Positions 7,218-21,342 of a stretch of 26,083 bases of DNA are shown here, piece by piece. A model generated the notes under the pieces. That model made no database searches and was not told the DNA's origin. It saw nothing but the letters and a program-made list of their open reading frames with translations. How positions within the stretch are numbered: the stretch's first letter is position 1; each line of letters starts with the position of its first letter. Where the stretch lies: NCBI GenBank assembly GCA_919902475.1, contig CAKKRA010000101.1, positions 1-26,083 of the forward strand. Direction: 5' to 3'. The position numbers and the translations under genes were made by a program. The stretch is from Nitrospiria bacterium. GTDB lineage: Bacteria > Nitrospirota > CAKKRA01 > 9FT-COMBO-42-15.

Positions 7218-8729
7218 TTATACTGATTTTCTCTTTTCAATCTCTTTTATAAAGACATCAGTAATCTCCGGGTCAAACTGCGTCCCGGAAAACTTCTTTA
7301 ACTCAGATATTGCCGCCTCATGGGATAATGCCTTTCTATAGGGCCTGTCAGATGTCATTGCGTCAAAGGCATCTGCTACCTGCAGGATTCTTGCTCCTAA
7401 TGGTATTTCGCCTCCTTTTATACCATCAGGATAGCCGCTGCCATTGAAGAATTCATGATGGTGATAGATTAAGGGTATCGCATCTGAAAGAAAACTAATC
7501 GGCTGGATAATCTGCTTTCCAATAGTAATATGGTTTTTGAACATATCATGTTCAACCTTATTTAATCTTTCAGGCTTGTTCAAGGCAGAGTTGTCAATGC
7601 CGATTTTGCCTATATCGTGGAGCTTTGCCGCCTGGCATATAAGGCTTACCTCGTTCTGGGGAAGCCCAAGCCCTTCCGCAATAATCTGCGCATACTCGCA
7701 GACCTTATAAGAATGGCCTTTGGTATATTTATCCCTTGCCTCTAAAGCTGCTGCCAGACCGAGCATCGTCTCTTTAAAGGTCAGCTGGAGATTATCATAA
7801 AGCCTTGAAGTCTCAACTGCTGCAGCAATGCTGTTGCTGAATATAAGCAGGGACTTCTTCTGCCCTTCATTGAATATATGTCCCTTTGTAAATGAATAGG
7901 CATTTAAAACACCAATTATTTTATTATTTATTTTTAAAGGAACCGCGATAATTGAGATGAGGCTGCTTTCTTTTGCAATGAATACATCTGACCTTAAAAT
8001 ATCTTTCCCATGCAGGAGCACTGCTCTGTTATCCTTAAAGAATTTATTGACTAAATCATCACCTATAATTTTAATGAATCCTTTTGACCAGTTTTCATTT
8101 TTTGATTTAAAGCCGCGTATCTTTAATTCAAATAACCTGCTTTTTTCATTTTTAAGATACAGGGAAATGGCATCTGCATCAACCTCCCTTGATACGGCAT
8201 TTATTCCAATCCTGAAGATTTCATTAAGATTAGAGCCTGAGCTTATTGCTTCGCTTATATCATAAAGCGAGGTAGCCTCTTTTAGCTGAATATTTTCTAT
8301 CATATCCCTAAACTTTTCGTCAGCCCGTTTAACAGCATTCAGTATTTCATTAATGCTAAAAGGCTTGACTACATAGTCAAAGGCGCCCAATTTCATTGCA
8401 TCAACAGCAGTATCTATTGTGGCAAAACCTGTCAGCATTATTGTAACAATATTGCCCTTCAATTTTTTAATCTCATTTAACAGGGCAAGCCCGTCCATCT
8501 TTGGCATCCTGACATCTGATATAACAAGGTCATAATAGTCTTCCTTCAATATCTTTAATGCCTCTTCACCGTTTTTAGCAGTGGTAACAAAGTAGCCCTT
8601 TGACTTTAAGAATAAAGATACAACCTCAGTAATATTTTCCTCGTCATCAACAACTAATACCCGCTCAATTCCGCCTTTTTCCGCTGTAGGCCATTCATTC
8701 TTCAATAAATATGCATTATTTTGAGTCAT
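7218..8729 (-). CDS. Response regulator REC-GAF-HD-GYP, probable c-di-GMP phosphodiesterase
   Basis: VLVVDDE...SDVRMPKMDG (REC), GAF (IGVLNAYS), ARDKYTKGHS, LHDIGK, HHEFFNGSGYPDG, VADAFDAMTSDRPYRKA. AAGGAG 9 nt before ATG 8729 (ORF-track start 8747). Confidence 0.92.
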   Translation of the reverse strand: MTQNNAYLLKNEWPTAEKGGIERVLVVDDEENITEVVSLFLKSKGYFVTTAKNGEEALKILKEDYYDLVISDVRMPKMDGLALLNEIKKLKGNIVTIMLTGFATIDTAVDAMKLGAFDYVVKPFSINEILNAVKRADEKFRDMIENIQLKEATSLYDISEAISSGSNLNEIFRIGINAVSREVDADAISLYLKNEKSRLFELKIRGFKSKNENWSKGFIKIIGDDLVNKFFKDNRAVLLHGKDILRSDVFIAKESSLISIIAVPLKINNKIIGVLNAYSFTKGHIFNEGQKKSLLIFSNSIAAAVETSRLYDNLQLTFKETMLGLAAALEARDKYTKGHSYKVCEYAQIIAEGLGLPQNEVSLICQAAKLHDIGKIGIDNSALNKPERLNKVEHDMFKNHITIGKQIIQPISFLSDAIPLIYHHHEFFNGSGYPDGIKGGEIPLGARILQVADAFDAMTSDRPYRKALSHEAAISELKKFSGTQFDPEITDVFIKEIEKRKSV

Positions 8730-10911
8730 CTTGTGCAGCTCCTTCAATATCTATTATCTTATCTTTTCCAATGTATGATTTTGTCTTGTACTTTGTTATC
8801 TTTCCAATCTGCCGGACAAGCAATGCAATCCTCTTTGCGTCATCAAACATTACCTTCACTGCCCTGTAAACAGGGTCATCCTTTTCTATATTCATCATAA
8901 GAAGGTCAGCCCTTGCAATAATTGATGTCAGGGGCTGGTTGATTTCATGCGCTGCAGCGCCTGCAAGCTCTATTACTGCGGACTCTTTTTCTAACTGCAC
9001 CCTCTTTTCTTCAAGCTGTTTCTTTTCAGTTATATCCCGTGATATGCCTGAAAAACCTATTATCTCACCTGCCTCATCCTTTACAGGTGATATTGTAAGG
9101 CTGACATCTATAAGCCTGCCATCCTTGTGTTTCCTTTTTGTTTCAAAATTTGAGATGGTATTCCCCTTTATTACACTCTCAAAAAACATTGGCAGCTCAG
9201 CTCCCTTGTCTTCAGGAATAATGGAAATCTTCTTATTCATAACCTCCTCTTTTGAATAGCCGTACATTTTTTCCGCGGCGCTGTTCCAGCTTATGACAAC
9301 TTCATCCAAATCAATGCATGTTATCGCATCAGTGGCGCTCTCCACCAGCGTTCTGTATCTCTCTTCTGATTCCTTTATCTCTTCATTCAACTTTATGTTT
9401 TCAAGGGCAACTGCAACCTGATTTGCAATGCCCTTTGAGATTGCGGTCTCTTTTGTTGTAAAGGTATGAGCAGCCTGCGCAAAGGCTATGTTCATAAACC
9501 CCATAACTGACCCTTTGCTTACAAAGGGTGCAATCAAAAGCGATTTTATATTAAAGGTATCAGTAAATTCTTTTGGAAGGAATCCCGAATCAGGGGCATC
9601 TTCTATAATTATAGAGCCCCTTGTATCAAATATCTTATCAGCAATTATGTCAATATCCGGCTTTATAATCAGTCTTTTAAAATATGCAATCAATGAATCG
9701 TCTGTCAGACTTGTTTCAGCAGAAATAAAGGCGCAATCCCTCTCACTCCAGAGATGGGTGCAGCAAAAATCGCAGTTAATAAGCCATGGCATAATACCGC
9801 CAATCCGCTTTAATAATTGATTAACAGAGGTGTGATTGCTTATAAGTTCAGCGGTTTGCAAGAGTGTCGCAGATACATCTACCTCCTCATTAAGCGCGGC
9901 AAAGAGCTGTACATTTTCAATTGCCAGAGCTATCCTCTCTGCTAATATCTCTAACAGATTAATCTCATAAGGCGAAAAGGTATGCAAAGACAAGCTGTCT
10001 ATATGCAGTACACCCATTACCTTCTTTTTAACCCTTAAAGGCACAGCCAAAATAGACATTACATGATATGACCTTATATGCTCACTTGTAAGTATAGGCT
10101 TATCCTTTGCATAAGAAATAAACGGTCCATCCCTTTTAAGCACCTCTTTGATTATCTCCTTCTGCATCCTCTCTTCATATTGTTCAAGCACCTCTTCAGG
10201 CATATTATATGATGTCCTAAAGGTAATGCTGCCATCGTCGCCCAACAGATATATCTCTCCTGAGTCTACTGCCATTGCCTTTACCACCTTCTGGGTAAGG
10301 GAATACAATAAGGTTTCAATGTCCTTATTTGTAAATGATGTATCGATAATGGATTGCAAAGCAGAAAGCTCCTTTTGTATCTGATTCTTCCTCTCATTTA
10401 ACCTTATATTCTCTATTAAGGGAGACACTACTGTTGAAAATATATTTAGGAAATCCACATCCTGTTTTGTAAAGAGGTCTCTATTCTTCTTGTTAAAGGC
10501 AAATATAACTCCCAAGACTCCATTTTCAGAGAATAAGGGAACGCCAATAAATGAGTCCGTCCTGATATTATCAGTAATACCCTTCAGAATCCTCTTGTTT
10601 CTTAATGGATTGTCTATGAGTATAGGCTTCTTATTTTTCAGTATCCATGAACAGGCGCTGTTCTTTATATTAATATTCTGGATTGATATTGCCTTTGCCT
10701 GCTTGCCGTATGTTGAAAGAAGCTCTAACTTATCACCTTCTATTATGCAGGCTGCTACAGTTTCAGCATTAATAAGCCTTGCAATCCCTTTTGTAATCAT
10801 TGGCAAGGCGTCTTTCAGATTTTCTTTATTTATGGAGGTGCAAAGCTTCTGGAGCCTGTGCAGGCCTGATGCATATCTTTTACACTGCTCAATTGTGTGC
10901 TTATTTTTCAT
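8716..10911 (-). CDS. GAFx3-PAS-DHp(HisKA) sensor lacking a HATPase domain
   Basis: Three GAF-like units (SFIGVPL, SILAVPL, SLLIAPF), PAS (DAITCIDLDEVVISWNSAAEKMYGYS...SRDITEKK), H-box AAHEINQPL; only 76 residues follow the His. Start ATG 10911 or TTG 10944. Confidence 0.88.
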   Translation of the reverse strand: MKNKHTIEQCKRYASGLHRLQKLCTSINKENLKDALPMITKGIARLINAETVAACIIEGDKLELLSTYGKQAKAISIQNINIKNSACSWILKNKKPILIDNPLRNKRILKGITDNIRTDSFIGVPLFSENGVLGVIFAFNKKNRDLFTKQDVDFLNIFSTVVSPLIENIRLNERKNQIQKELSALQSIIDTSFTNKDIETLLYSLTQKVVKAMAVDSGEIYLLGDDGSITFRTSYNMPEEVLEQYEERMQKEIIKEVLKRDGPFISYAKDKPILTSEHIRSYHVMSILAVPLRVKKKVMGVLHIDSLSLHTFSPYEINLLEILAERIALAIENVQLFAALNEEVDVSATLLQTAELISNHTSVNQLLKRIGGIMPWLINCDFCCTHLWSERDCAFISAETSLTDDSLIAYFKRLIIKPDIDIIADKIFDTRGSIIIEDAPDSGFLPKEFTDTFNIKSLLIAPFVSKGSVMGFMNIAFAQAAHTFTTKETAISKGIANQVAVALENIKLNEEIKESEERYRTLVESATDAITCIDLDEVVISWNSAAEKMYGYSKEEVMNKKISIIPEDKGAELPMFFESVIKGNTISNFETKRKHKDGRLIDVSLTISPVKDEAGEIIGFSGISRDITEKKQLEEKRVQLEKESAVIELAGAAAHEINQPLTSIIARADLLMMNIEKDDPVYRAVKVMFDDAKRIALLVRQIGKITKYKTKSYIGKDKIIDIEGAAQDDSK

Positions 10912-10993
10912 AATCCTTATTCGTTCCTGTATGAGCGATACCAATTACCAGAATAATCGGTCTTGTATAAATATGCCTAAATATTAATATAGT

Positions 10994-11009
10994 AGCAATT
11001 TTCATACCA
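10994..11009 (-). promoter_or_regulatory. Putative sigma54 -24/-12 promoter for the GAF-DHp / HD-GYP operon
   Basis: Minus strand TGGTATGAAAATTGCT, with exact GG-N10-GC spacing. Confidence 0.65.
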
Positions 11010-11096
11010 GAGACATAATTATAAAATATCAAGTTTTACAAAATGTTACAGAGCTGTCATAAGATAAAAACATTTAAAATGACATTAAATGCGCTT

Positions 11097-11118
11097 AACT
11101 GTTCAACAATGAACAGTT
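11097..11118. promoter_or_regulatory. Perfect inverted repeat, candidate transcription-factor site
   Basis: AACTGTTCA-N4-TGAACAGTT in the divergent promoter region. Confidence 0.55.
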
Positions 11119-11162
11119 GTTGGTCTTACAATTTATGGCTGATTATGTTAGACTAAATCTTA

Positions 11163-12488
11163 ATGAAAAAGGTTGGTCTAATCAGTCTCGGATGCCCTAA
11201 GAATCAGGTAGATTCAGAGATTATGCTCGGCTATCTTACAAAGGCAGGCTTCACCATTACAAACAAAGAGGATGAGGCAGAGATAGCTATTGTTAATACC
11301 TGCGGCTTTATAAATGATGCCAAAGAAGAATCTATTGAAAGGATAATTGAGGCAGGAAGATTGAAAGAGAATGGAATCTGCAAGGCACTGATTGTAACTG
11401 GCTGCCTGAGCGAAAGATACAAAGAGGATTTAATAAAGGAACTGCCGGAGGTAGATGCATTTATCGGTGTCTCTGACATGGAAAGGATTGCTGATGTATG
11501 CAGAGAATTAATCGATAATGTAGGGGCAGGCTTTAAACCAGCCCCTACAGCATCCCCTCAACGTATCCTGATAAACCCTTCACACTATGCCTATGTAAAG
11601 ATTTCAGAAGGGTGCAATAACAGGTGCTCATACTGCACAATACCATCAATCAGGGGCGGTTATAAGAGCAGAGAAATAGAGGCTATCATTAATGAAGTGG
11701 AACAGCTTGCATCAAAGGGTGTAAAGGAGATAAATATAGTAGCGCAGGATACAACTGACTATGGCTTAGATATCTATAGAAAGAGGTGCTTAGCAGAACT
11801 TTTAAAGGGGCTTGTTAAGATAAAAAATCTCTTATGGATACGATTATTATATACCTATCCTGAGCATTTTGATGATGAATTAATAAACATTATTGCCAGT
11901 GAAGAGAAGATATGCAATTACATTGACATCCCCATCCAGCATATTGATGATGAAATATTAAGAAAAATGAAAAGAAATAGCAGTGAAAAGCAGATAAGGG
12001 GCATCATAGAAAGGCTGCGGCGCACGATTCCGAATATCGTTTTGAGAACATCCCTGATAGCAGGATTTCCAGGAGAAACAGAGGCGCAGCATAAAAGGCT
12101 GTATGATTTTGTTAAAGAGGCAGAATTTCACAGGCTCGGCGTTTTTGCATATTCAAAAGAAGAAGGCACTCCTGCCTCAGGATATAAAAATCAGATAACA
12201 CAAAAGATAAAAAACAGAAGAAGAAATGAGATAATGAGGCTTCAGTCAGGGATATCATTAAACAAAAACAGAGAATTAATCGGTAAAACACTTAAGGCGC
12301 TGATTAACGGATTATCAAGTGAAAGCGAGCTTCTTATTGACGGCCGTTACTACGGCCAGGCGCCAGAGGTAGATGGTGTTGTGTATATAAATGATGGAAT
12401 GGGATTAGATAAAGTAAGAGCTGGTGATTTTGTTAATGTGGAAATTACAGAGGCTCATCAGTATGACCTTGTGGGAAAGGTCATCTAA
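11163..12488 (+). CDS. rimO: Ribosomal protein S12 methylthiotransferase
   Basis: [55 protein letters not shown] (TRAM domain). Confidence 0.96.
11519..11549. repeat. GTAG-type REP-like palindrome (family B) inside the rimO reading frame
   Basis: TGTAGGGGC-AGGCTTTAAACCA-GCCCCTACA, translated as [10 protein letters not shown]. Confidence 0.85.
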
Positions 12489-14791
12489 ATCTCAAACCTT
12501 CTCACCTCTGCCTTTAACAGGTCTGCCTGGTCAACAAGGGTATCAATGGTATGTTTTATATCCGTAAATGAATCAGAATTTTGCTGAGTTATCTCCCTGA
12601 TCTTTTCTATTGCATGAACTATCTGCTCACTCCCGGTCTTCTGCTCTTTAGTTGCCTTCACAATTGAATGCACCTTGTGATTAACATTCTCAACTGCATC
12701 GTTAATCTGCTTGCTGCCTTTTGTCTGCTCTATTGTAGCCTGGCGCACCTGCCTTGATATGTCCCTCATCTTTTCTACCGAACTGATTATCTGGTCAGAG
12801 CCCTTCATCTGCTCCTGAGTAGCCTGTGCAATCTGCCTCACCATATTCGTTATCCTCTGCACCGCCTCATTAACCTGATGAAGCCCCCTTGACTGCTCTT
12901 TGGTTGCCTTTTCAATCTCCTTTGACATCTGTGCAGATTTATCAGCGCTCTCAAGTATCTTGTTTAATGCGCTGCCGGCATCCTTTGAAAGATTCATCCC
13001 CTCAATAACATTCACAGAGCTGCCCTCCATAGCAGCAACTGCATCTTCAACCCCTTTCTGCATTGACTCTATCATCTGGGCTATCTCTTTTGTAGATGCA
13101 GATGTCCTTTCTGCTAAATCCTTTATCTCATCTGCAACCACTGCAAACCCTCTGCCGTGCTCTCCTGCCTGCGCTGCAATTATTGCTGCATTTAATGCAA
13201 GAAGGTTTGTCTGGTCTGTTACATCATCTATTACTGTTAATATCTTGCCTATCTGCAAAGACCTCTCTCCAAGCCTGTTTATAATAACGCTTGTAGCTGC
13301 CACTGATTCCTTTATCTTATTCATACCGCCTACAGTCTTTTCAATAGCCTTTATACCCAGCTCAGATGCATCCTTTTTTACCCTTTCTGAGAGCATTGTT
13401 GACTCATTGACATTTCCTTCAACGCTTTTTATAGTTGTTGCAATCTCATTAACTGCAGAGGCCGTCTCCTCTGATGCTGATGAAAGGACATCAACATTCT
13501 CGCTAATCTGCTTTATTGAGGCTGACATCTCTGATATTGCAGATGATGTGTTCTCAACTACATTAGATAAGACATCGGTGCTCTGGGCAATCTGATTTAT
13601 AGATGCTGTCATCTCAAGGATAGATGCAGATGACTCATCAGCTGACTGTGAAAGCCCCTCTGCAGAATCTGCCACGCCCTTTATAGATGTATTCATCTGA
13701 TTAATGGATGCAGATGTAGACTCAGTTGATTCTGCCTGAGCCTTTGCCCCTTTTGAAAGTTTATCTGTATTTGTATTCATCTGCACTGCAACGGAAACAA
13801 CAGACTCAGCAACATCCTGAATTCTTTTGATAATTGTGCGGAGGCTGTATATGAAGCCATTTATGCCTGTTGCGAGCTCCTTTATTGTTGAAGCCTCAAC
13901 ATCTTTTCTTAAATCGCCATTTTCCATCTCCTTTAATGTGCCTATAATATTTGCTAAAGGATTCAGCACCCTTAATATAACAACAGAGAATGCTACTACA
14001 GAAACAAGGCCTAATGCAGCAATAAAAAGCTCTGAACGAAACAGGGTCTTTCTTAATAAGGTCACATCCTTTAATGCAATTATGCTTATGTTCTTCTTTT
14101 CATTTACCTCTGACAGATATATTTCAAATCTTTTGTCGTCCTTATTAATCTCTTTCTTTCCTGCAGCCTCCTTTACAAATTCATCTGTAGCCTCTATTAC
14201 CTCTTTACCAAGTATTATACCTGCCTCTGCATCAAGGATGGACTTTACCTCTGATAAAAGCAGTTTTGTATTAACGCCTAATTCTATAATTCCAAGCTTT
14301 TTCCCTTTTGAATAAATCGGCGAGGCAATGAATGAGTAGACCTTTCCCTTTTCCTCCTCAACGCCAAATACAACCTTATCCTCCCTGTTTGCAATCAGCG
14401 CTATCTCTCTGTTGTCCATCTGTGTATCCTTTGAATTGTTAGCTTTTAAATAGAGCCTTCCGTCAGGTGTATAGTAATTTAATATGCTTAAGCCGTCTTT
14501 GCTGTATCTATTAAGGATTGGATATGAATAGTCATAAAGCTCGTCTCTGTCGCCGAAATTGCTTTGTATATAGCTAATATTTGCTATAGTCTCTAAAAGG
14601 CCTTGCGACCATTTTTTATTATTTTCAAGGGCTTTTTTAATAAGGCCAGAGAGGTTTCTATTTGCTTCAGTTTCAATATAGGTCTCAATCTTTGAAAAAC
14701 TCCAGCGTGAAACAAGTATAAGCAGGACAAATTGAATAGCAATAATCGCTATCAGTATAGACTTGAGACCGCCCTTTTTGAAAAATTCCAT
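12485..14791 (-). CDS. Methyl-accepting chemotaxis protein (TM, Cache-like sensor, TM, HAMP, extended signalling domain)
   Basis: [43 protein letters not shown] hairpin tip; two hydrophobic TM segments; 28-residue repeats on both arms. Confidence 0.95.
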
Positions 14792-14822
14792 TTTTCTTTT
14801 ACCCCGTTTCAGATTTAACTGT

Positions 14823-14852
14823 TATAGGGGCATGGCATACCATGCCCCTATA
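14823..14852. repeat. REP-like hairpin (family B), intergenic
   Basis: TATAGGGGCATGG-CATA-CCATGCCCCTATA: perfect 13-bp stem; shares the TAGGGGC/GCCCCTA termini with the rimO copy. Confidence 0.8.
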
Positions 14853-14860
14853 TACAAACA

Positions 14861-15310
14861 TCACTTCTCAATAGGATACCCTTTTTCTTTCCATTCAGGT
14901 ATCCCGCCCCTGAACCAGTTTACATTTTTATGGCCTGCCTTTATGGCAGCAACAGATGATTTATAGGATTTCCAGCAACGGTCGCCATTGCAATAAAAGA
15001 CAACAGGAGTTGACTTGTCAGATGGAAGCTTGCTTGTGTCAAATTTATCAACACTTGAATCAAAATTAGCAGCCTTGTCGCTCTTTTCCTTATATGGAAG
15101 CATTACTGCGCCAGGCAGATGCCCTTCCCCATATTCAAGCTCATTCCTCACATCAAAGACCTTTCCATTCCCGCTTATCAGCTTCTTACACTCATCTGCA
15201 TTTATAACCTTTGCCCCACTTAAGCCGTCAGGGACAATGGGGTTTTCTGCATAAACTAAACCGCTAATGGCAAATATGGCTACCAGGGTAACTATTAAAA
15301 TCTTATACAT
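14861..15310 (-). CDS. Exported single-domain rhodanese-like protein
   Basis: Signal peptide MYKILIVTLVAIFAISGLVYA; DVRNELEYGEGHLPGA, VFYCNGDRCWKS, WFRGGIPEW. AGGAGG places the start at ATG 15310 rather than GTG 15319. Confidence 0.9.
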   Translation of the reverse strand: MYKILIVTLVAIFAISGLVYAENPIVPDGLSGAKVINADECKKLISGNGKVFDVRNELEYGEGHLPGAVMLPYKEKSDKAANFDSSVDKFDTSKLPSDKSTPVVFYCNGDRCWKSYKSSVAAIKAGHKNVNWFRGGIPEWKEKGYPIEK

Positions 15311-15336
15311 TCTGCTCACCTCCTTTCATATTAATA

Positions 15337-15364
15337 AGTATAGCCTTTTTTTTTATTTTGTCAA
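15337..15364 (-). promoter_or_regulatory. Putative sigma70 promoter for rhodanese-MCP
   Basis: Minus strand TTGACA-N16-TATACT. Confidence 0.5.
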
Positions 15365-15414
15365 AAAGGCCGATTTACTAAGTATATATAATTAAATCTC
15401 CTGAGGGTATTTAA

Positions 15415-15430
15415 AGCAACTTCTGTGCCA
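15415..15430 (-). promoter_or_regulatory. Sigma54 -24/-12 promoter for rhodanese-MCP
   Basis: Minus strand TGGCACAGAAGTTGCT matches TGGCAC-N5-TTGCW. Confidence 0.85.
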
Positions 15431-15522
15431 AAAAGACTAAACCCGCTTGGAGTTCTAAGTGCCTGATATTGCTTTTAAAATTATTGAGATATTTTAGATT
15501 GATGCTGTTATGAAGATAAAAT

Positions 15523-15570
15523 TGCTGAATTTTAAGCAGAAGAGCTATGATTGGTGCTAAATTTCCTGCA
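15523..15570. promoter_or_regulatory. Candidate tandem upstream activating sequences
   Basis: TGCTGAATTTTAAGCA (15523-15538) and TGCTAAATTTCCTGCA (15555-15570), 32 bp apart. Confidence 0.5.
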
Positions 15571-16914
15571 GTAGAGCTTGTATTTTTTCATCTTATATTG
15601 AAGCGTGCCTCTCTTCATCTTCAACTTCTCTGATGTCTTAACCTGATTATAGCTGCATTCCTCCAATGCCTGTTTGATTATATCCCTTTCAAGATGTTCA
15701 ACACGCTCTGCAAATCCAATATCAGATAATGCCTTTGAATAAAGATCAGCCCCCCTTTCCCTTAACTCCATTGGCAGGTCATCAATATTCACAACCTCAT
15801 CCTCTGACAGGACTATTATCCTTTCAATCGCATTTTCCAATTCCCTTATATTCCCAGGCCAGTCATAGGAATACAATATATCCTTAACCTCTGGTGATAT
15901 CAACACATCCTTGTGCAGCTCCTTTGTGTATCTATTCCAAAAATAATCTATTAAATCCGAAATATCCTCTCTCCGCTCTCTTAAAGGAGGGAGGGTAAGC
16001 GTAATCACATTCAGCCTGTAAAAGAGGTCTTCGCGAAAGATATTCTTCTTAATTGCCTCCTTAAGATCCTTATTTGTTGCTGCAATTATCCGCACATCCA
16101 CCTTTAATGTAGTTGTGCCCCCAACCCTTTCAAAGCTCTTCTCCTGCAGGAACCTTAGCAGTTTTACCTGTGTATTAAGAGGAAGGTCGCCTATTTCATC
16201 TAAAAACAACGTGCCTTTGTCTGCAATCTCAAACCTCCCCTTTTTCTGCGCATGCGCGCCGGTAAAAGAGCCTTTCTCATGGCCAAACAACTCGCTTTCC
16301 AAGACACCCTCTGCTAAGACAGCGCAATTCACTGCCACAAAGGAAAAATCCCTCCTGCTGCTTCTCTCATGAATCTCCCTCGCAACAAGCTCCTTGCCTG
16401 TGCCGCTTTCGCCTAATATAAGAACAGGCGTTGGCCTGCCTGCTACCTTATTTATAAATTTGTATATCTTTTGCATCTTCTGACCCTTGCCGATAATCCT
16501 GCCGAACCTGCTCTTAATCTCCTCTTTGAGTATTAGATTCTCGTCTGCTATCCTTTGCTGTGATAGCGCCTTTTCCACCTTTATTTCTATCTCTTCAAGG
16601 GAAAATGGCTTGAGGATATAGTCATACGCGCCTAACTTCATTGCCTCTATGGCATTCTCGATAGTGCCGTATGCTGTCATAATAATTACTATGGTTGTTG
16701 ACGAAATCTTCTTTATCTTTTTCAATACCTCAAGACCGTCCATCTTTGGCAGCCTGAGGTCTGTAATTACAAGGTCAAACATATCAGATGCAAATAATCT
16801 GACAGCATTCTCACCTGTGCCAACTGAAAAGACATCATACCCTTTCATCCTGAGGGTCTTTTCAAGAACATTCCTCATGCCTATGTTATCTTCAACTATT
16901 AATATCCTGTTCAT
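15532..16914 (-). CDS. Sigma54-dependent response regulator (NtrC/AtoC family: REC-AAA+-HTH)
   Basis: REC ([10 protein letters not shown]), [52 protein letters not shown]-terminal HTH. Confidence 0.96.
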
Positions 16915-16920
16915 AATAAT

Positions 16921-16983
16921 CCTTTTCCCTTTGCCCTTTTCCCTTTGCTCTTTACGCTACACCCTATACCCTTCACCCTATAC
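16921..16983. repeat. Heptamer tandem array (family D), nine degenerate units
   Basis: ccttttc cctttgc ccttttc cctttgc tctttac gctacac cctatac ccttcac cctatac. Confidence 0.8.
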
Positions 16984-16988
16984 TTTAT

Positions 16989-18125
16989 CTATCTCCTTAT
17001 CGGCAGTCTTATGATAAAGGTTGTTCCTTTTCCATGCCTGGTTTTAAATTCTATCTTGCCGTCATGTGCCTCAATAATCTTATGCACAATTGCCAGACCA
17101 AGCCCTGTGCCCTGCTCCTTTGTTGTAAAAAATGGGTTGAATACCCTGTCTCCAATCTCCTTTGGAATGCCTGAGCCTGTATCAGAAATTTCAATAAATA
17201 TCCTCCCATATTGGATGCCGCTCTTAACAGTCAGCCTCCCGCCATTCGGCATAGCCTGAACTGCGTTCTGGATGATATTTAAGAATGCCATCCTTAATTC
17301 AAACGGATCAGCCTCAACAGCCGGCAGGGTCTTTAATGCCTTGATATCAAAATCTATCCTGTCTGCATCTTTAGCAAGAGAGACCATTGATATCACCTCT
17401 TTGATTAATGTATTCACATCTGTTTCCTCGAATATCGGCTGCGGCTTTTTAACAAAGGAAAGAAAGTTTGTTACAATGCGGTTAAGATTTTTTGTCTCTT
17501 TGATAATCGCATCTACTGCTGATGCGATTTCATCCTCTGACAGTCCTTTTTTAAGTAGCTCTGCATATCCTGCAATTGCAGAAAGCGGATTGCGTATTTC
17601 ATGGGCAACGCCTGCAGAAAGCTCTCCAACAGCAGCGAGCCTCTCCTTCAGCTTTATATCTGCCTCAAGCTCTTTTACATCTGTAATATCAGAAAACACC
17701 GCAATAACGCCTATCGGAGTTGCCTTATCATCGTAAAGTATAGATGTAGTTATACCGATCCATTTTATACTTCCATCTATTTTAACCTGTATCTGTTTTC
17801 TGTAATATGTCTCTCCATTCACTCCATTCTTAATAAGCTGGGCAACATGGCTATTACCTTTAAGGATATTCAAATAGCTCTTATCTTTTTCCTTTGTGCA
17901 GTCTATACCCAAAATACTGTCTGCAGAAGCATTGCAAAAGGTAACCAAACCATCCATGTTTATAACCATTACTCCGCTCGGAATGCACTGGAGAATGAGA
18001 TTGTTGTATTCCCTCATATCTTTGCTTAAGGCATTCTTTGGAAATCTCGGAATGGTATCTTTTCTGCGGGGTCTTGATTGATTTTTCATAGGATTTTTTT
18101 TGGGTTCATCCTGAGCCCTTAACAT
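16989..18125 (-). CDS. Cytoplasmic PAS-HisKA-HATPase sensor histidine kinase
   Basis: PAS (IPSGVMVINMDGLVTFCNASA), AHEIRNPL, NIIQNAVQAM, DTGSGI, FFTTKEQGTGLGL; no TM segment. Start uncertain (18125, 18089 or 18017). Confidence 0.93.
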   Translation of the reverse strand: MLRAQDEPKKNPMKNQSRPRRKDTIPRFPKNALSKDMREYNNLILQCIPSGVMVINMDGLVTFCNASADSILGIDCTKEKDKSYLNILKGNSHVAQLIKNGVNGETYYRKQIQVKIDGSIKWIGITTSILYDDKATPIGVIAVFSDITDVKELEADIKLKERLAAVGELSAGVAHEIRNPLSAIAGYAELLKKGLSEDEIASAVDAIIKETKNLNRIVTNFLSFVKKPQPIFEETDVNTLIKEVISMVSLAKDADRIDFDIKALKTLPAVEADPFELRMAFLNIIQNAVQAMPNGGRLTVKSGIQYGRIFIEISDTGSGIPKEIGDRVFNPFFTTKEQGTGLGLAIVHKIIEAHDGKIEFKTRHGKGTTFIIRLPIRR

Positions 18126-18192
18126 GAGATCAGTTGAACAATTGTTGAAGGCTATACACTTAAATATATCTCAATTTTATGATATGTCAAGG

Positions 18193-18642
18193 TCAATACC
18201 CTAAAACCTCAATCAAAAGGCTTATACCGAGGAGCATCTGAATCAATACCAAGCAGATTCCAGAGTAGTTTACAAGCATGTGTATTTTGGGAAGGTTGTC
18301 AGCGCCATGGCCATTTGATAATATATAACCCATTCCAACGCCTATGGCAAAGAGGAGCAGGATAATCATTCCTAAATATGCGTGCGGGCCTGAGTCAAAG
18401 AAAGGCCTTTCCAAAGTGTATTTATTTATAAGAAAGCCGAGAATAGAGCCAAGCGAAATAAGTATAAAAAAGAGAGCGCCCATATTAATGTGGGTGTTCC
18501 ACTTGAATGTTATATTTTGTCCTCTATATTTATCTAATTTGCTCTTGTACCTCTGCCATCCGAGATAGGCGGCATAAAAAAGAATTATTATCGAAATGAC
18601 CTGCAATATTGGATGGATTAATATCAGGCTAATTTGCGCCAT
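18193..18642 (-). CDS. DUF4079-like four-TM membrane protein with four histidines
   Basis: IHPILQ...GWQR...THINMG...SGPHAYLG...IHMLVN pattern; start probably ATG 18642 (ORF track 18678). Confidence 0.6.
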   Translation of the reverse strand: MAQISLILIHPILQVISIIILFYAAYLGWQRYKSKLDKYRGQNITFKWNTHINMGALFFILISLGSILGFLINKYTLERPFFDSGPHAYLGMIILLLFAIGVGMGYILSNGHGADNLPKIHMLVNYSGICLVLIQMLLGISLLIEVLGY

Positions 18643-19111
18643 ATCCGCGTGAAGATAGAATGCCGCTTGCTGCAGCAATAAGGCTTACAGTTAAGAGTAC
18701 CCAGTGCATTGCATTTAATCTCTTAAAGATGGCATTTACATCCGGCACCTCGCCTTTTACCATTCTCTCAAGCATCTTTTTTATAATAAAAGGCTCAAGT
18801 CCAAAGAGCATAACAACCCACATTACCCATATCATAAACATTATGGTTAGAAAGATTCCGTGTCCTGTAAAGAGCATCAAGTGCTTGCCAGTTATAAACG
18901 CCATTGTTAGACCTGTTATGCCGACAGTAGCAGCATAATACCTCGCAAGCTTAGCAAATCTGTGCTCAACCCTCTGAAAAGACATTGCCTTCTGAATAAT
19001 ATCCTCAATCTTATACAAGGAAGGGAAGATTATAATTGTTACAAAGGCAAGGCCTCCAAACCACAGAATAACTGTGAGTACATGAATAATAAGCAACAAA
19101 GTAAATAACAT
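18629..19111 (-). CDS. Four-TM membrane protein (CopD/DUF4149-like N-terminal HxxxxxxWxGG motif)
   Basis: HVLTVILWFGGLAF; strong RBS GGAGGAG; four hydrophobic segments. Family tentative. Confidence 0.7.
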   Translation of the reverse strand: MLFTLLLIIHVLTVILWFGGLAFVTIIIFPSLYKIEDIIQKAMSFQRVEHRFAKLARYYAATVGITGLTMAFITGKHLMLFTGHGIFLTIMFMIWVMWVVMLFGLEPFIIKKMLERMVKGEVPDVNAIFKRLNAMHWVLLTVSLIAAASGILSSRGYGAN

Positions 19112-19134
19112 CTATCTCCTCCTCTGTAAAAACT

Positions 19135-19164
19135 GTCATTCCCGCATCTTTTTAGCGGGAATCC
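19135..19164. repeat. GTCATTCCC...GGGAATCC hairpin (family C half-unit) overlapping the yggU 3' end
   Basis: GTCATTCCCGC-ATCTTTTTA-GCGGGAATCC. Confidence 0.8.
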
Positions 19165-19460
19165 ACTCCTAATAAGTCTTGAAGTATTTCTACCACATCT
19201 GCCTTCCCAAGTCCTATGATCTTTATCAGCTTATCTTTTGATTTCTCACCCTTGATTATCTCAAGCTGTGATTTCGCTATTTTAAATCTCTTTGATAAAA
19301 ATTCAATGCAGCGCCTGTTTGCCTCTCCTTCAACTGGCGGCGATGTCAGCTTTATCTTCAATGCGCCATTGTATTCACCAACAATCTCATCCTTAGAAGC
19401 GCGCGGCTGAATCCTCACAGGCAGGATTACGCCTTCATTATCCTCCACTAAATTTAACAT
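19152..19460 (-). CDS. yggU: DUF167 / YggU family protein
   Basis: VRIQPRASKDEIVG, LKIKLTSPPVEGEAN, IIKGEKSKDK. Start at 19460 or 19463; the ORF-track extension to 19502 is repeat-derived. Confidence 0.92.
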   Translation of the reverse strand: MLNLVEDNEGVILPVRIQPRASKDEIVGEYNGALKIKLTSPPVEGEANRRCIEFLSKRFKIAKSQLEIIKGEKSKDKLIKIIGLGKADVVEILQDLLGVDSR

Positions 19461-19474
19461 CATAGATGATAACC

Positions 19475-19598
19475 CAGATTTAGTCAGAGGGGTCAGATGC
19501 AAGGCGGAGCGAGGGCTCGCACCGCAGCATACATGTTAGTATGTGAGGATGCGAGGCCGATGCGACAACGCAGCAGATGACCCCTATCACTAAATCTG
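19475..19598. repeat. Dispersed palindromic element family A, copy 2
   Basis: Core 19495-19578; closed by 21-bp inverted repeats CAGATTTAGTCAGAGGGGTCA / TGACCCCTATCACTAAATCTG (2 mismatches). Confidence 0.92.
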
Positions 19599-19603
19599 CA
19601 ACA

Positions 19604-20107
19604 TTATTTCTCTTTGGGTTTTAAGAACCTCACATTGTCTTCTCTTATCTCGTCCTCCTTATCCTCCTCCTCCATGCTTATCATCTTCTGGAAGGTTCTG
19701 ATTATACCCTTGATTTTTTCAAGATAGAGCACCTTCTGTTTCTTTAAATCATTTAATTCCTTTTTCAGGTTTGCAATCTCTTTATGCACATCCTTAATCA
19801 GGCTGTCAGCCTTAAGCTCTGCCTCTTTTATAATAAGCTCTGCCTCTTTCAGTGCATTGCCCTTAAGATTCTCAACAATCTGCTGCGCATTCATCAGGGT
19901 GTCTTTTAAGGTTGTCTCCTTTTTCTTAAAATCAAGTATCTTTGCCTCTTTCTTTGCAAGCTCCTCTTTGAGATAATTATTCTCCTTAATAAGGGTTTCA
20001 AACTCCCTTGTTAAAAGGTCAAGAAAGGAGTTTACCTCTTTTACATCAAACCCCCTGAACTTCACCCCAAAGTTCTTTTGCTGTATATCCAATGGCGTTA
20101 TCTTCAT
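19604..20107 (-). CDS. divIVA: DivIVA-domain protein
   Basis: MKITPLDIQQKNFGVKFRGFDVKEVNSFLD followed by coiled coil; RBS GGAGGAGG. Confidence 0.93.
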   Translation of the reverse strand: MKITPLDIQQKNFGVKFRGFDVKEVNSFLDLLTREFETLIKENNYLKEELAKKEAKILDFKKKETTLKDTLMNAQQIVENLKGNALKEAELIIKEAELKADSLIKDVHKEIANLKKELNDLKKQKVLYLEKIKGIIRTFQKMISMEEEDKEDEIREDNVRFLKPKEK

Positions 20108-20130
20108 TTTTCACCTCCTCCAATTATTCA

Positions 20131-20235
20131 GTCATTCCTGCGAAACCTGTCCCTCTATGTCATTCCTGCGTGTATCTGGCAGGAATCCAGTCTTGTACAT
20201 TATGGATTCCCGCTCAAAAACTCCGCGGGAATGAC
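20131..20235. repeat. Composite family C element (GTCATTCC...GGAATCC...GGATTCC...GGAATGAC)
   Basis: GTCATTCCTGCG at 20131 and 20159, GCAGGAATCC at 20179, GGATTCCCGC at 20204, CGCGGGAATGAC at 20224-20235. Confidence 0.85.
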
Positions 20236-20242
20236 ATCTTCC

Positions 20243-20542
20243 TTACCTCAAACTATTCGCCAATTGCAACAATGATATAACCAAAAAATTCTGCAAAAAG
20301 AATATTGCCATAATTACAATTATCGGCGATATATCAATTCCGATTTTATGAATTGGAATTATCCTTCTTATCGGCGACAGCACTGGCTCTGTTATCCTGT
20401 ATAAAAACTGCACAATAGGATTGTATGGATCTGGGTTCACCCATGATATTAAAGCCCTTGCAATGATAACCCACATATAGATTGTAAGGCCATAATCAAG
20501 AATCTTTGCCAAAGCGCTTATAAAATTTGCCAAGATAAACAT
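20243..20542 (-). CDS. yggT: YggT family membrane protein
   Basis: IIARALISWVNPDPYNPIVQFLYRITEPVLSPIRR, GIDISPI; TAATG coupling to proC. Confidence 0.95.
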   Translation of the reverse strand: MFILANFISALAKILDYGLTIYMWVIIARALISWVNPDPYNPIVQFLYRITEPVLSPIRRIIPIHKIGIDISPIIVIMAIFFLQNFLVISLLQLANSLR

Positions 20543-21342
20543 TATCCTCTCCTTCCAAGTTCCTCTGCCCTTTTTTCTGCTGCCTGTAATGCATCTATCA
20601 CTATACCTTTTAGTCCTTTTTCATCAAAAACCTTTAGCCCTGCTGCTGTTGTTCCTCCCGGCGAAGTTACCATCTCCCTGAGTTTTGCTGGAGGCATACC
20701 AGTATCAAGGAGTTTTGCTGTGCCAATAAGCGTCTGAATTGCAAGCTCTGAGGCATTATCCATGTCTAAACCCATTTTCACACCACCCTCTATCATACCC
20801 TCAATAAATAGTGCAATAAATGCAGGGCCGCTGCCTGACAATGCTGTAACTGCATTCATATATTTTTCTGGAAGTGTTAATACTTTCCCAATAGACATAA
20901 AAATCTCTCTGACTGCGGCAATGTCCTTATCAGAAAAACATTCGCAGAGGGATAATACACTCATGCCTTCCTGAACAAGCGCTGGTGTATTCGGCATTAC
21001 ACGGATGAGCTTCTTTGTCTTTAGCTTTGATTGAAGATAAGAAAGTGTTATGCCTGCTGCTATTGACACAACAGTCTTCTCATCTGTAATAACATCGGAT
21101 ATCTCATCCAGAACTGCTACTATATTTTGGGGCTTGACTGCAAGGATGATTATGTTGCAAGAAGCTGCCACATCTTTATTAGAAGATGTTGTCTTTATCT
21201 TATAGGTTTCCTCTAAATATCTTCTCCTATCTTCTCTGGGCTCTGATACAAAGATATTCATACTCCGAACCCCGAACTCAGAACTCCGAACTCCTTTTAT
21301 CAGTGCCTCTGCCATATTTCCACCGCCAATAAAGCCTATCAT
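20542..21342 (-). CDS. proC: Pyrroline-5-carboxylate reductase
   Basis: GFIGGGNMAEA, LAVKPQ, RVMPNTP, TALSGSGPA, VTSPGGTT. Confidence 0.97.
   Translation of the reverse strand: MIGFIGGGNMAEALIKGVRSSEFGVRSMNIFVSEPREDRRRYLEETYKIKTTSSNKDVAASCNIIILAVKPQNIVAVLDEISDVITDEKTVVSIAAGITLSYLQSKLKTKKLIRVMPNTPALVQEGMSVLSLCECFSDKDIAAVREIFMSIGKVLTLPEKYMNAVTALSGSGPAFIALFIEGMIEGGVKMGLDMDNASELAIQTLIGTAKLLDTGMPPAKLREMVTSPGGTTAAGLKVFDEKGLKGIVIDALQAAEKRAEELGRRG
21260..21294. repeat. Heptamer tandem array (family D) inside proC
   Basis: Minus strand GGAGTTC GGAGTTC TGAGTTC GGGGTTC GGAGTAT, encoding GVRSSEFGVRS. Confidence 0.85.

What the first reader, a model, noticed from the sequence alone, without database searches (positions are those of the whole stretch)
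7218..10911. Kinase-less DHp sensor coupled to a REC-GAF-HD-GYP phosphodiesterase
Seen: after three GAF domains and a PAS domain the protein has an intact H-box (AAHEINQPL; His codon 8947-8949) but ends 76 aa later with KTKSYIGKDKIIDIE, with no N/G1/F/G2 boxes. It ends in a clean stop overlapping the next gene. Established: autophosphorylation needs the CA domain. Inference: a signal-regulated phosphatase, phosphotransfer protein or heterodimer partner controlling c-di-GMP breakdown; the phosphoryl donor must be encoded elsewhere, possibly the kinase at 16989-18125. The YxGxxxIxD tail may be a docking motif.
Basis: partly seen in the sequence, partly recalled or inferred. Interest (0 to 1): 0.62.

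Follow-up and report, generated by a model that had tools for sequence, protein, structure and literature searches.

The report
Kinase-less histidine sensor beside c-di-GMP phosphodiesterase
A conserved bacterial sensor protein keeps the phosphorylatable histidine helix of a sensor kinase plus a short conserved tail but has no ATP-using domain; it is co-translated with a receiver-controlled c-di-GMP-degrading enzyme and belongs to a large family that, as far as I could find, nobody has studied.

Summary
Gene 8716-10911 (-) encodes three GAF domains, a PAS domain and a HisKA helix pair (DHp). His666 is at codon 8947-8949. The protein ends 76 residues later with no HATPase domain. Its stop overlaps by 14 nt the start of a REC-GAF-HD-GYP gene (7218-8729, -). 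It is not a truncation: nine orthologues from independent Nitrospirota assemblies end at the same place, and every context I read keeps the same downstream gene. The C-terminal 100 residues define a large family, with 913 clusters at E<=1e-10. Its H-box is FixL-type (AHE[LI]NQPL) and the His is invariant in 150 of 150 sequences. Its tail is RY(E/K)TKxY(V/I)GxxxIxD(L/I), and the protein almost always ends there. In the main Myxococcota clade the gene directly downstream is usually a complete kinase, and half the members carry an N-terminal receiver. The tail is therefore a family signature, not a dock specific to this HD-GYP partner. AlphaFold2 monomer models leave the tail disordered. Most likely the signal-gated DHp exchanges phosphoryl groups with the neighbouring receiver, and I favour net dephosphorylation. 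This is inference. The class "HisKA, no HATPase" is known but untested. Unchecked first-reader notes of this scan flagged look-alike proteins in other genomes.

The parts
8716..10911 (-). Sensor gene: GAF x3, PAS, DHp and conserved tail, no CA domain. It is 731 aa from the ATG at 10911. The longest ORF runs from a TTG at 10944 (742 aa), and that numbering is used in this report.
   Evidence: ORF list and translation; Pfam; orthologue lengths of 723-753 aa and no PF02518.
9400..10821 (-). Three GAF domains (about aa 42-515).
   Evidence: PF13185, PF01590 and PF13492 each match three stretches; the best are aa 42-177 and 208-344.
9025..9363 (-). PAS domain (aa 528-640) directly upstream of the DHp.
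   Evidence: PF00989 at 2e-18 and TIGR00229 at 6e-31. The AF2 model gives a PAS fold with pLDDT of about 90. 85 of 93 family members have a PAS domain.
8785..9024 (-). DHp helical hairpin (aa 641-720) with a FixL-type H-box AAHEINQPL.
   Evidence: PF00512. AF2 gives two long helices with pLDDT above 90. The profile matches the DHp of LvrB, ZraS and FixL chimeras in the PDB.
8947..8949 (-). Codon of His666, the putative phospho-acceptor or catalytic histidine.
   Evidence: Read directly. His is invariant in 150/150 family representatives, with E(+1) 149, N(+3) 150, Q(+4) 149 and P(+5) 150.
8719..8796 (-). Conserved C-terminal tail (aa 717-742): TKYKTKSYIGKDKIIDIEGAAQDDSK. Family consensus is ITRYETKxYVGxxxIxDLDxAS.
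   Evidence: Column counts. The tail is conserved in orthologues and also when the module is internal. pLDDT is below 50 in both AF2 monomer models. There is no PDB match.
8716..8729 (-). A 14-nt overlap between the sensor's last codons plus stop (TAA 8718-8716) and the start of the phosphodiesterase gene (ATG 8729-8727). A GAAGGAG Shine-Dalgarno lies at 8745-8739.
   Evidence: Read directly. The same 14-nt overlap is seen in L001-L004. No minus-strand terminator-like site lies between the genes.
7218..8729 (-). Response-regulator c-di-GMP phosphodiesterase gene: REC (8328-8660), GAF (7812-8231), HD-GYP (7263-7748).
   Evidence: PF00072 at 7e-32, PF13487 HD_5 at 3e-37 and weak GAF. NCBIfam NF053512 'response regulator c-di-GMP phosphodiesterase' scores 255 bits, below its cut-off of 400. 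Catalytic motifs were read in the translation.

Best explanation
The 731-aa protein is a cytoplasmic sensor whose output is a histidine-kinase DHp four-helix-bundle domain that has lost the ATP-binding CA domain. It therefore cannot phosphorylate itself. It keeps every H-box residue used for phosphoryl chemistry and occupies the 'cognate kinase' slot in front of the REC-GAF-HD-GYP gene. The most likely mechanism is as follows. Ligand binding to the GAF and PAS domains changes the DHp conformation. The DHp dimer docks the receiver of the phosphodiesterase and moves its phosphoryl group through, or with the help of, His666. This two-gene operon contains no donor. The net effect I favour is therefore signal-gated removal of the phosphoryl group, by phosphatase action or back-transfer followed by hydrolysis. 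The receiver itself would be charged by another kinase or by acetyl phosphate. The phosphorylation state of REC would then set HD-GYP activity and so c-di-GMP breakdown. Shown here: the architecture, the conservation, the gene coupling and the family-wide invariance of the His box and tail. Inferred: DHp-REC docking, the direction of phosphoryl flow and the effect on the enzyme. The conserved tail is an integral part of the module, and its role (dimer cap or partner-induced fold) remains unknown.
For: (1) HisKA is present and HATPase_c is absent, and nine orthologues end at the same residue. Five of the 6 genomes of the order have the gene, and in all five the REC-HD-GYP gene lies directly downstream. 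The same holds for L001-L004. (2) His666 and E, N, Q, P and L of the H-box are invariant or nearly so in 150 representatives. The His is also kept in the divergent Nitrospirota subfamilies. This argues for phosphoryl chemistry rather than mere dimerisation. (3) Two of the three other REC-HD-GYP genes of this genome sit beside a complete DHp-HATPase kinase. The third sits beside a REC-sigma54 gene on a short contig. Here the CA-less sensor takes the kinase's place. (4) The receiver has intact phospho-acceptor residues. It falls among NtrC-type receivers, the type that pairs with NtrB/FixL-like H-boxes by established knowledge. (5) The positions that set partner specificity in HisKA kinases are H+11 and H+12 (Skerker et al. 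2008, from my own knowledge). They are A-R in all orthologues of this clade, G-Y in the kinase-partnered clade and G-N or G-L in the receiver-partnered members. (6) A CA-less HK853 is reported to dephosphorylate its regulator in vitro, with the His acting as general base (PMC7005713). (7) Other members are followed by a lone receiver, precede REC-GGDEF-HD-GYP, or are fused as REC-module-REC-GGDEF.
Against: There is no biochemical evidence for any member. Two features would be less needed for a pure phosphatase: the strict invariance of His, and of the acidic residue at H+1, which activates His as a nucleophile. Both fit a phospho-accepting role as well or better. In the bulk of the family the adjacent gene is a complete kinase, not a receiver: 43 plus 2 truncated of 72 evaluable metagenome loci and 12 of about 22 genome loci. 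The family's ancestral job may therefore concern kinases. The AF2 monomer models say nothing about docking. Neighbour annotation in loci used HMMs I built here and a naive ORF caller, not Pfam.
Confidence: 0.4

Rival explanations
1. Forward phosphorelay transferase. The module is a DHp-type histidine phosphotransferase, working like Spo0B or ChpT. It takes a phosphoryl group from a receiver encoded elsewhere (a hybrid kinase or a lone REC) onto His666 and passes it to the REC of the HD-GYP enzyme. The GAF and PAS signals gate the relay.
For: His and the nucleophile-activating E at H+1 are invariant. About half of the family carries an N-terminal receiver (44 of 84; 18 of 93). Relay-like layouts exist: REC-module-REC-GGDEF (L040), and a hybrid kinase followed by REC-module and REC-GGDEF-HD-GYP (L042). 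A similar REC-DHp-REC-GGDEF-HD-GYP ORF without HATPase lies in L048. The main-clade operon of a kinase plus REC-...-module reads naturally as H1-D1-H2. RedE shows that a kinase-like protein can accept phosphate from a receiver (PMC2755868).
Against: This protein has no receiver of its own and no donor gene nearby. Known phosphotransferases carry no sensor domains, whereas this one has four. The genome already has five Hpt-domain matches, so no phosphotransferase is missing.
Confidence: 0.3
2. Substrate or partner of a complete kinase. Either His666 is phosphorylated in trans by the CA domain of another kinase (a split kinase), or the DHp binds or heterodimerises with a kinase and regulates it. 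The tail would serve as the contact for that kinase.
For: A complete kinase of one coherent type (HELNNPL...SYARP) lies directly downstream in most main-clade loci, often with a 4-nt overlap. Natural fusions place the module upstream of a second, complete HisKA-HATPase in one polypeptide. The tail is conserved yet disordered in monomer models, as expected of a segment that folds on a partner.
Against: In the Nitrospirota clade no kinase is adjacent. In this genome no kinase has a notably similar DHp: the best scores 24.6 bits and the window's kinase 22.1 bits. The window's kinase has its own sigma-54 regulator. The downstream kinases in Myxococcota keep their own His, so they are not the missing half of a split enzyme.
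Confidence: 0.12
3. Phosphate-independent scaffold. The DHp serves only as a dimerisation and docking surface that holds or allosterically controls the phosphodiesterase, as pseudo-kinases such as DivL do.
For: The archaeal 'HisKA, no HATPase' proteins are suggested to act through protein-protein interaction (PMC5847659). The tail looks like a binding motif.
Against: Pseudo-kinase DHp domains tend to lose the His (DivL has Tyr, from my own knowledge). Here His, E, N, Q and P are invariant in 150 sequences and the His is kept in distant subfamilies.
Confidence: 0.1
4. Truncated pseudogene or assembly error of an ordinary kinase.
For: None beyond the missing domain.
Against: Orthologues from independent assemblies (ENA, NCBI, Logan and four genomes of the order) have the same end and the same downstream gene. 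There is no room for a CA domain, because the next gene overlaps the stop. 101 of 149 family representatives end within 15 aa of the module.
Confidence: 0.01

Closest known systems
'HisKA, no HATPase' nonenzymatic kinase-like proteins (Galperin et al. [quoted passage not shown]
   Same: N-terminal PAS and GAF sensors, a C-terminal HisKA-like domain with a conserved His, and no HATPase. Such proteins are often misannotated as kinases, and none has been studied experimentally.
   Different: That description is an architecture class drawn from archaea. This is a specific bacterial family with a FixL-type H-box, a defined conserved tail and defined gene partners. I found no description of that family in five literature searches.
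FixL / NtrB-type (HPK4) sensor histidine kinases
   Same: The H-box AHE(L/I)NQPL and the two DHp helices. The best PDB profile matches are LvrB, ZraS and FixL-containing chimeras. A PAS domain sits directly upstream of the DHp.
   Different: There is no CA domain, so no autophosphorylation. About 25 conserved residues follow helix 2 instead. A profile-profile comparison with complete kinases aligns only the DHp, positions 3-76.
Spo0B and ChpT, DHp-type histidine phosphotransferases
   Same: A histidine on a kinase-like helical hairpin that cannot be charged from ATP and works with receiver domains.
   Different: By my own knowledge, Spo0B and ChpT keep a degenerate CA-like alpha/beta domain and have no sensor domains. 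This protein has only a short tail and four sensor domains.
RedE of Myxococcus xanthus (PMC2755868)
   Same: A kinase-like protein that does not autophosphorylate, receives phosphate from a receiver and dephosphorylates another regulator.
   Different: RedE is a 242-aa protein with a poorly conserved HisKA and a conserved HATPase_c domain, and it has no sensor domains.
RpfG-type REC-HD-GYP response regulators (for the downstream gene)
   Same: A receiver followed by an HD-GYP c-di-GMP phosphodiesterase domain with HD and GYP motifs.
   Different: A GAF domain lies between REC and HD-GYP. The partner in the kinase position has no kinase domain.

Membership tests
HisKA-family sensor histidine kinase | DHp (HisKA) domain with a phospho-acceptor His in an H-box | tested here: met
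   PF00512 scores 32.5 bits against a cut-off of 26.9. The H-box AAHEINQPL was read.
HisKA-family sensor histidine kinase | HATPase_c catalytic domain with N, G1, F and G2 boxes | tested here: not met
   No PF02518 or related match at E<=0.1. Only 76 residues follow the His, and the next gene overlaps the stop. The domain is absent in all orthologues.
'HisKA, no HATPase' / incomplete histidine kinase class | N-terminal PAS and/or GAF sensor domains | tested here: met
   Three GAF domains and one PAS domain.
'HisKA, no HATPase' / incomplete histidine kinase class | C-terminal HisKA-like domain with a conserved His and no recognisable HATPase | tested here: met
   In the family sample, 93 of 93 members have HisKA and 1 of 93 has HATPase.
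DHp-type histidine phosphotransferase (Spo0B/ChpT) | Helical hairpin bearing the His that forms a four-helix bundle in the dimer | tested here: inconclusive
   A two-helix hairpin is predicted with pLDDT above 90. The dimer could not be modelled with the tools at hand.
DHp-type histidine phosphotransferase (Spo0B/ChpT) | C-terminal degenerate CA-like alpha/beta domain | tested here: not met
   Only about 25 residues follow helix 2. They are predicted disordered in the monomer.
DHp-type histidine phosphotransferase (Spo0B/ChpT) | Reversible phosphotransfer between receiver domains | not testable with these tools
   This needs biochemistry.
Hpt (PF01627) phosphotransfer domain | Match to the Hpt four-helix monomer profile | tested here: not met
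   The protein has no PF01627 match. The genome has five Hpt matches elsewhere.
REC-HD-GYP c-di-GMP phosphodiesterase (downstream gene) | Receiver domain with intact acidic pocket, phospho-Asp, Thr and Lys | tested here: met
   PF00072 at 7e-32. VVDDE, ISDVRMP, LTG and VKP were read in the translation.
REC-HD-GYP c-di-GMP phosphodiesterase (downstream gene) | HD_5 domain with HD and GYP motifs | tested here: met
   PF13487 at 3e-37. LHDIGK and GSGYPDG were read in the translation. Enzyme activity was not tested.

The most novel reading that the evidence does not exclude
The PAS-DHp-tail module is a previously unrecognised, widespread type of two-component element. It would be a sensor-gated histidine station that never makes its own phosphate. 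It would use its conserved, partner-folding tail to recruit either the CA domain of a neighbouring kinase (Myxococcota) or a receiver (Nitrospirota and others). Phosphate made by one sensor would then be re-routed or cancelled according to a second set of signals. In this genome it would make c-di-GMP breakdown depend on two independent inputs.
Probability: 0.15. Interest if true: 0.8.

Novelty: new variant of a known kind. Interest (0 to 1): 0.55.

Why it matters
Two-component signalling is usually read as kinase plus regulator. Genome annotation labels proteins like this one as 'histidine kinase' or 'PAS domain protein'. This family has at least 913 clusters at 50% identity, and possibly thousands. 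It is found in Myxococcota, Nitrospirota, Chloroflexota, Acidobacteriota and relatives. It keeps an invariant phospho-histidine box, never has the ATPase, and adds a conserved tail with no structural homologue found by sequence search. That gives a defined, testable module for a known but uncharacterised class. It has clear gene partners and clear mutants to make (H666, E667, Q670, tail). In this organism it would link GAF and PAS ligands to c-di-GMP turnover without a dedicated kinase.

Tried and rejected
1. Truncation or assembly error was rejected from the orthologues.

2. I asked whether the tail is a remnant of the DHp-CA linker plus the first CA strand. By eye, RYETK...IxDL lines up with SYARP...VxLN of the downstream kinases. 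However, hhalign aligned only DHp positions 3-76. The idea is unsupported but not excluded.

3. Two AF2 monomer runs were made for the tail fold, one of the module alone and one of PAS plus module with 99 sequences. Both gave pLDDT below 50 for the tail. The tail profile has no PDB match better than E=0.9.

4. I tested whether the genome lacks Hpt proteins, so that the module would have to be the phosphotransferase. It does not: there are five Hpt matches.

5. A search for a heterodimer partner found no kinase of the genome with a close DHp.

6. The kinase at 16989-18125 was considered as the donor. Nothing supports it specifically.

7. A receiver tree places this REC with NtrC-type receivers and a paralogous REC-HD-GYP. 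It does not group with the receivers that accompany the module in other phyla. So there is no sign of an anciently co-inherited module-receiver pair. The tree is weakly resolved.

I repeated it with the narrower A5, which biases the 80 loci towards the main ITRYETK clade.

9. The ESM Atlas returned only generic HisKA clusters.

10. Five literature searches found the class but no study of this family.
Full report
THE OBSERVATION

Two minus-strand genes fill the region. The first is the ORF 8716-10944. Its real start is probably the ATG at 10911, because orthologues are 723-753 aa long. I use the 742-aa numbering throughout. Pfam finds three GAF stretches, one PAS domain (aa 528-640) and a HisKA domain (aa 659-713, 32.5 bits against a cut-off of 26.9). 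It finds no HATPase_c family at E<=0.1.

The H-box AAHEINQPL is present. The His codon lies at 8947-8949, and the protein ends 76 residues later with ...KYKTKSYIGKDKIIDIEGAAQDDSK. Its last codons and TAA stop (8718-8716) overlap by 14 nt the ATG (8729) of the next gene, which is preceded by GAAGGAG. No terminator-like site on the minus strand lies between the two genes.

The next gene encodes REC-GAF-HD_5. Its receiver residues and its HD and GYP motifs are intact (read).

NOT A BROKEN KINASE

A search of 5.8 billion proteins returned nine orthologues from independent Nitrospirota assemblies at 70-97% identity over the last 223 residues. All have GAF, PAS and HisKA, and none has PF02518. All end at the same position.

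In four public contigs the same 14-nt overlap leads into a REC-(GAF)-HD-GYP gene. In the species-representative genomes, five of the six genomes of the order have the gene, counting the window's own. The sixth is 79% complete. Wherever the flank could be read, the REC-HD-GYP gene is downstream.

A LARGE FAMILY DEFINED BY THE LAST 100 RESIDUES

I searched 1.84 billion cluster representatives exhaustively with phmmer, using aa 640-742 as the query. It found 4769 proteins at E<=1e-3 and 913 at E<=1e-10. Of the best 149, 101 end within 15 residues of the match and 128 within 60.

Column counts over 150 sequences show strong conservation:
- His666 is invariant (150/150).
- The surrounding box A-H-E-L-N-Q-P-L-T is nearly invariant: E 149, N 150, Q 149, P 150, L 149.
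- R705 in helix 2 is invariant.
- The tail IGKITRYETKxYVGxxxIxDLDxAS has Y724 150, G726 142, I730 146 and D732 149.

Of 93 full-length members scanned with Pfam, 93 have HisKA, 85 PAS, 37 GAF, 18 REC and one HATPase_c.

The H-box is the FixL type. The family profile matches the DHp of LvrB, ZraS and FixL-derived chimeras in the PDB, but only up to about profile position 82. The tail alone matches nothing in the PDB.

AlphaFold2 monomer models gave two confident long helices (pLDDT above 90). One model covered the module and the other PAS plus module. In both the tail was left below pLDDT 50. A strongly conserved segment that is disordered in a monomer model is what one expects of a piece that folds on a partner or across the dimer. 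That is an inference, and no complex could be modelled here.

GENE PARTNERS ACROSS THE FAMILY

A scan of species-representative genomes found the complete module mostly in Myxococcota (Polyangia, Corallococcus and others). Single cases came from Anaerolineae, Acidobacteriota and unclassified proteobacterial MAGs. I annotated neighbours with HMMs built here from the window's own REC, HATPase, HD-GYP and sigma-54 domains plus a GGDEF domain from a related locus. These are not Pfam models, and the ORF caller was naive.

With that annotation, 12 of about 22 loci have a complete DHp-HATPase kinase directly downstream. In 84 module-bearing ORFs from a metagenome scan biased to the main ITRYETK clade, 72 have a readable downstream flank. 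Of those 72, 43 have such a kinase, plus 2 truncated cases, often with a 4-nt overlap. An N-terminal receiver is present on 44 of the 84. These downstream kinases are one coherent type with their own His.

About eleven long proteins are natural fusions. In them the module, with its tail intact, is followed by further PAS or GAF domains and a second, complete HisKA-HATPase.

Receiver partners also occur:
- A lone REC 28 nt downstream of a PAS-PAS-module protein.
- A hybrid kinase followed by REC-module and then REC-GGDEF-HD-GYP (L042).
- A REC-module-REC-GGDEF fusion (L040).
- A REC-DHp-REC-GGDEF-HD-GYP ORF with no HATPase (L048).

Some members have no recognisable signalling neighbour.

In a sample of 201 genomes of the window's phylum, 40 have a tail-bearing CA-less DHp. 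They fall into three kinds:
- The window's clade.
- A clade of about 350 aa with AHE(L/M)RQP(L/M) and Y(K/R)TKDY..G..I.DL.
- A clade of about 650 aa with HEINNPL and a variant tail EY(V/L)KG..MTDL.

The His is retained in all three. The window's genome has a single full module.

WHAT THIS MEANS FOR THE PAIR IN THE WINDOW

The sensor cannot autophosphorylate, by established knowledge that the CA domain supplies ATP. It nonetheless sits exactly where a cognate kinase would. In this genome, two of the three other REC-HD-GYP genes lie beside a complete kinase. The third lies beside a REC-sigma54 gene on a short contig.

Its receiver partner is phosphorylatable and groups with NtrC-type receivers. 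The DHp positions that set partner specificity in HisKA kinases are H+11 and H+12 (Skerker et al. 2008, recalled from my own knowledge). They are A-R in every orthologue of this clade, G-Y in the kinase-partnered clade and G-N or G-L in receiver-partnered members. This fits a surface tuned to different partners.

The invariance of His and of the residues around it argues for phosphoryl chemistry. A CA-less HK853 is reported to dephosphorylate its regulator, with the His acting as general base (PMC7005713). RedE shows that a non-autophosphorylating kinase-like protein can take phosphate from a receiver and act as a phosphatase, although RedE keeps a HATPase domain (PMC2755868).

I therefore favour, at about 0.4, a signal-gated DHp that strips phosphate from the receiver of the phosphodiesterase. 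The close rival, at about 0.3, is a forward relay from a donor receiver elsewhere. The rival is favoured by the invariant acidic residue at H+1 and by the relay-like fusions. It is disfavoured by the four sensor domains and the lack of any donor nearby. These two readings are chemically the same reaction run in opposite directions.

A role as substrate or partner of a complete kinase (about 0.12) fits the Myxococcota operons and fusions. It has no support in this genome: no kinase has a close DHp, and the kinase at 16989-18125 has its own sigma-54 regulator. A phosphate-independent scaffold (about 0.1) fits poorly with the invariant His box.

COMPARISON WITH WHAT IS KNOWN

The architecture class is on record. 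Galperin et al. 2018 describe archaeal "HisKA, no HATPase" proteins with PAS or GAF sensors and a conserved His. They note that P2CS calls them "possible incomplete histidine kinase", that they are misannotated as kinases, and that none has been studied (PMC5847659). A 2026 preprint on incomplete kinases treats only the opposite case, HATPase without HisKA.

I found no description of this bacterial family, its tail or its gene partners in five literature searches. Absence from an open-access corpus is not proof.

By shared sequence words, unchecked first-reader notes of this scan flagged look-alike stretches in three other genomes: e1-3787519, e1-3824469 and e1-4321404. Word-matched follow-up reports describe other kinase-less DHp sensors, some with a conserved tail (e1-3253195, e1-689841, e1-2880094). 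I did not test whether those belong to this family.

VERDICT

The finding is real and conserved. The proposed donor kinase is unsupported. The proposed partner-specific docking role of the tail is contradicted by the family survey. The tail is better described as an integral signature of the module, with an unknown contact. I class the finding as a new variant of a known but unstudied kind, of moderate-to-good interest.

Noticed in passing
L018-L037 and L101-L180 (other genomes and metagenomes): In Myxococcota and soil metagenomes there is a conserved two-gene operon. It consists of [REC]-GAF/PAS-DHp-tail (no ATPase) followed, often with a 4-nt overlap, by a complete sensor kinase of one coherent type (H-box HELNNPL, then SYARP). 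About eleven natural fusions of the two also exist.
   Followed up: partly
L200-L210 (Nitrospirota family f5, 26 of 44 genomes sampled): A second kinase-less DHp subfamily of about 650 aa. Its H-box is RHEINNPLT and its tail is the variant ...EY(V/L)KG(V/M)xMTDL at the extreme C-terminus. Neighbours were not examined because the flanks were only 1.5 kb.
   Followed up: no
L048:5131-7881 (+), a Desulfatitalea MAG: A single ORF with the layout REC-DHp-REC-GGDEF-HD-GYP and no HATPase by my HMMs. It looks like a kinase-less relay fused to c-di-GMP enzymes. It was seen only in a domain table.
   Followed up: no
own genome contigs C294:6824-9902 and C220:907-5378: Other c-di-GMP signalling operons of the same genome. 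One is REC-DHp-HATPase-GGDEF, then REC, then REC-HD-GYP. The other is REC-HD-GYP, then a kinase, then REC. The genome has many more receiver proteins (about 65) than kinases (about 30) by my HMM counts.
   Followed up: partly
window 12485-14791 (-) and 14861-15319 (-): A 768-aa methyl-accepting chemotaxis protein with a dCache_3 sensor lies next to a rhodanese-domain gene, between the finding and the sigma-54 two-component pair. The arrangement is conserved in L001-L003.
   Followed up: no
window 18193-19111 (-): Two ORFs of about 160 aa overlap by 50 nt. One matches DUF4079 (cytochrome b561-like) and the other weakly matches CopD. They lie directly upstream of the PAS kinase gene.
   Followed up: no
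window 4211-21294: Another first-stage note on this same stretch (e1-5290753) reports five small-repeat families, some entering ORFs. I did not look at them.
   Followed up: no
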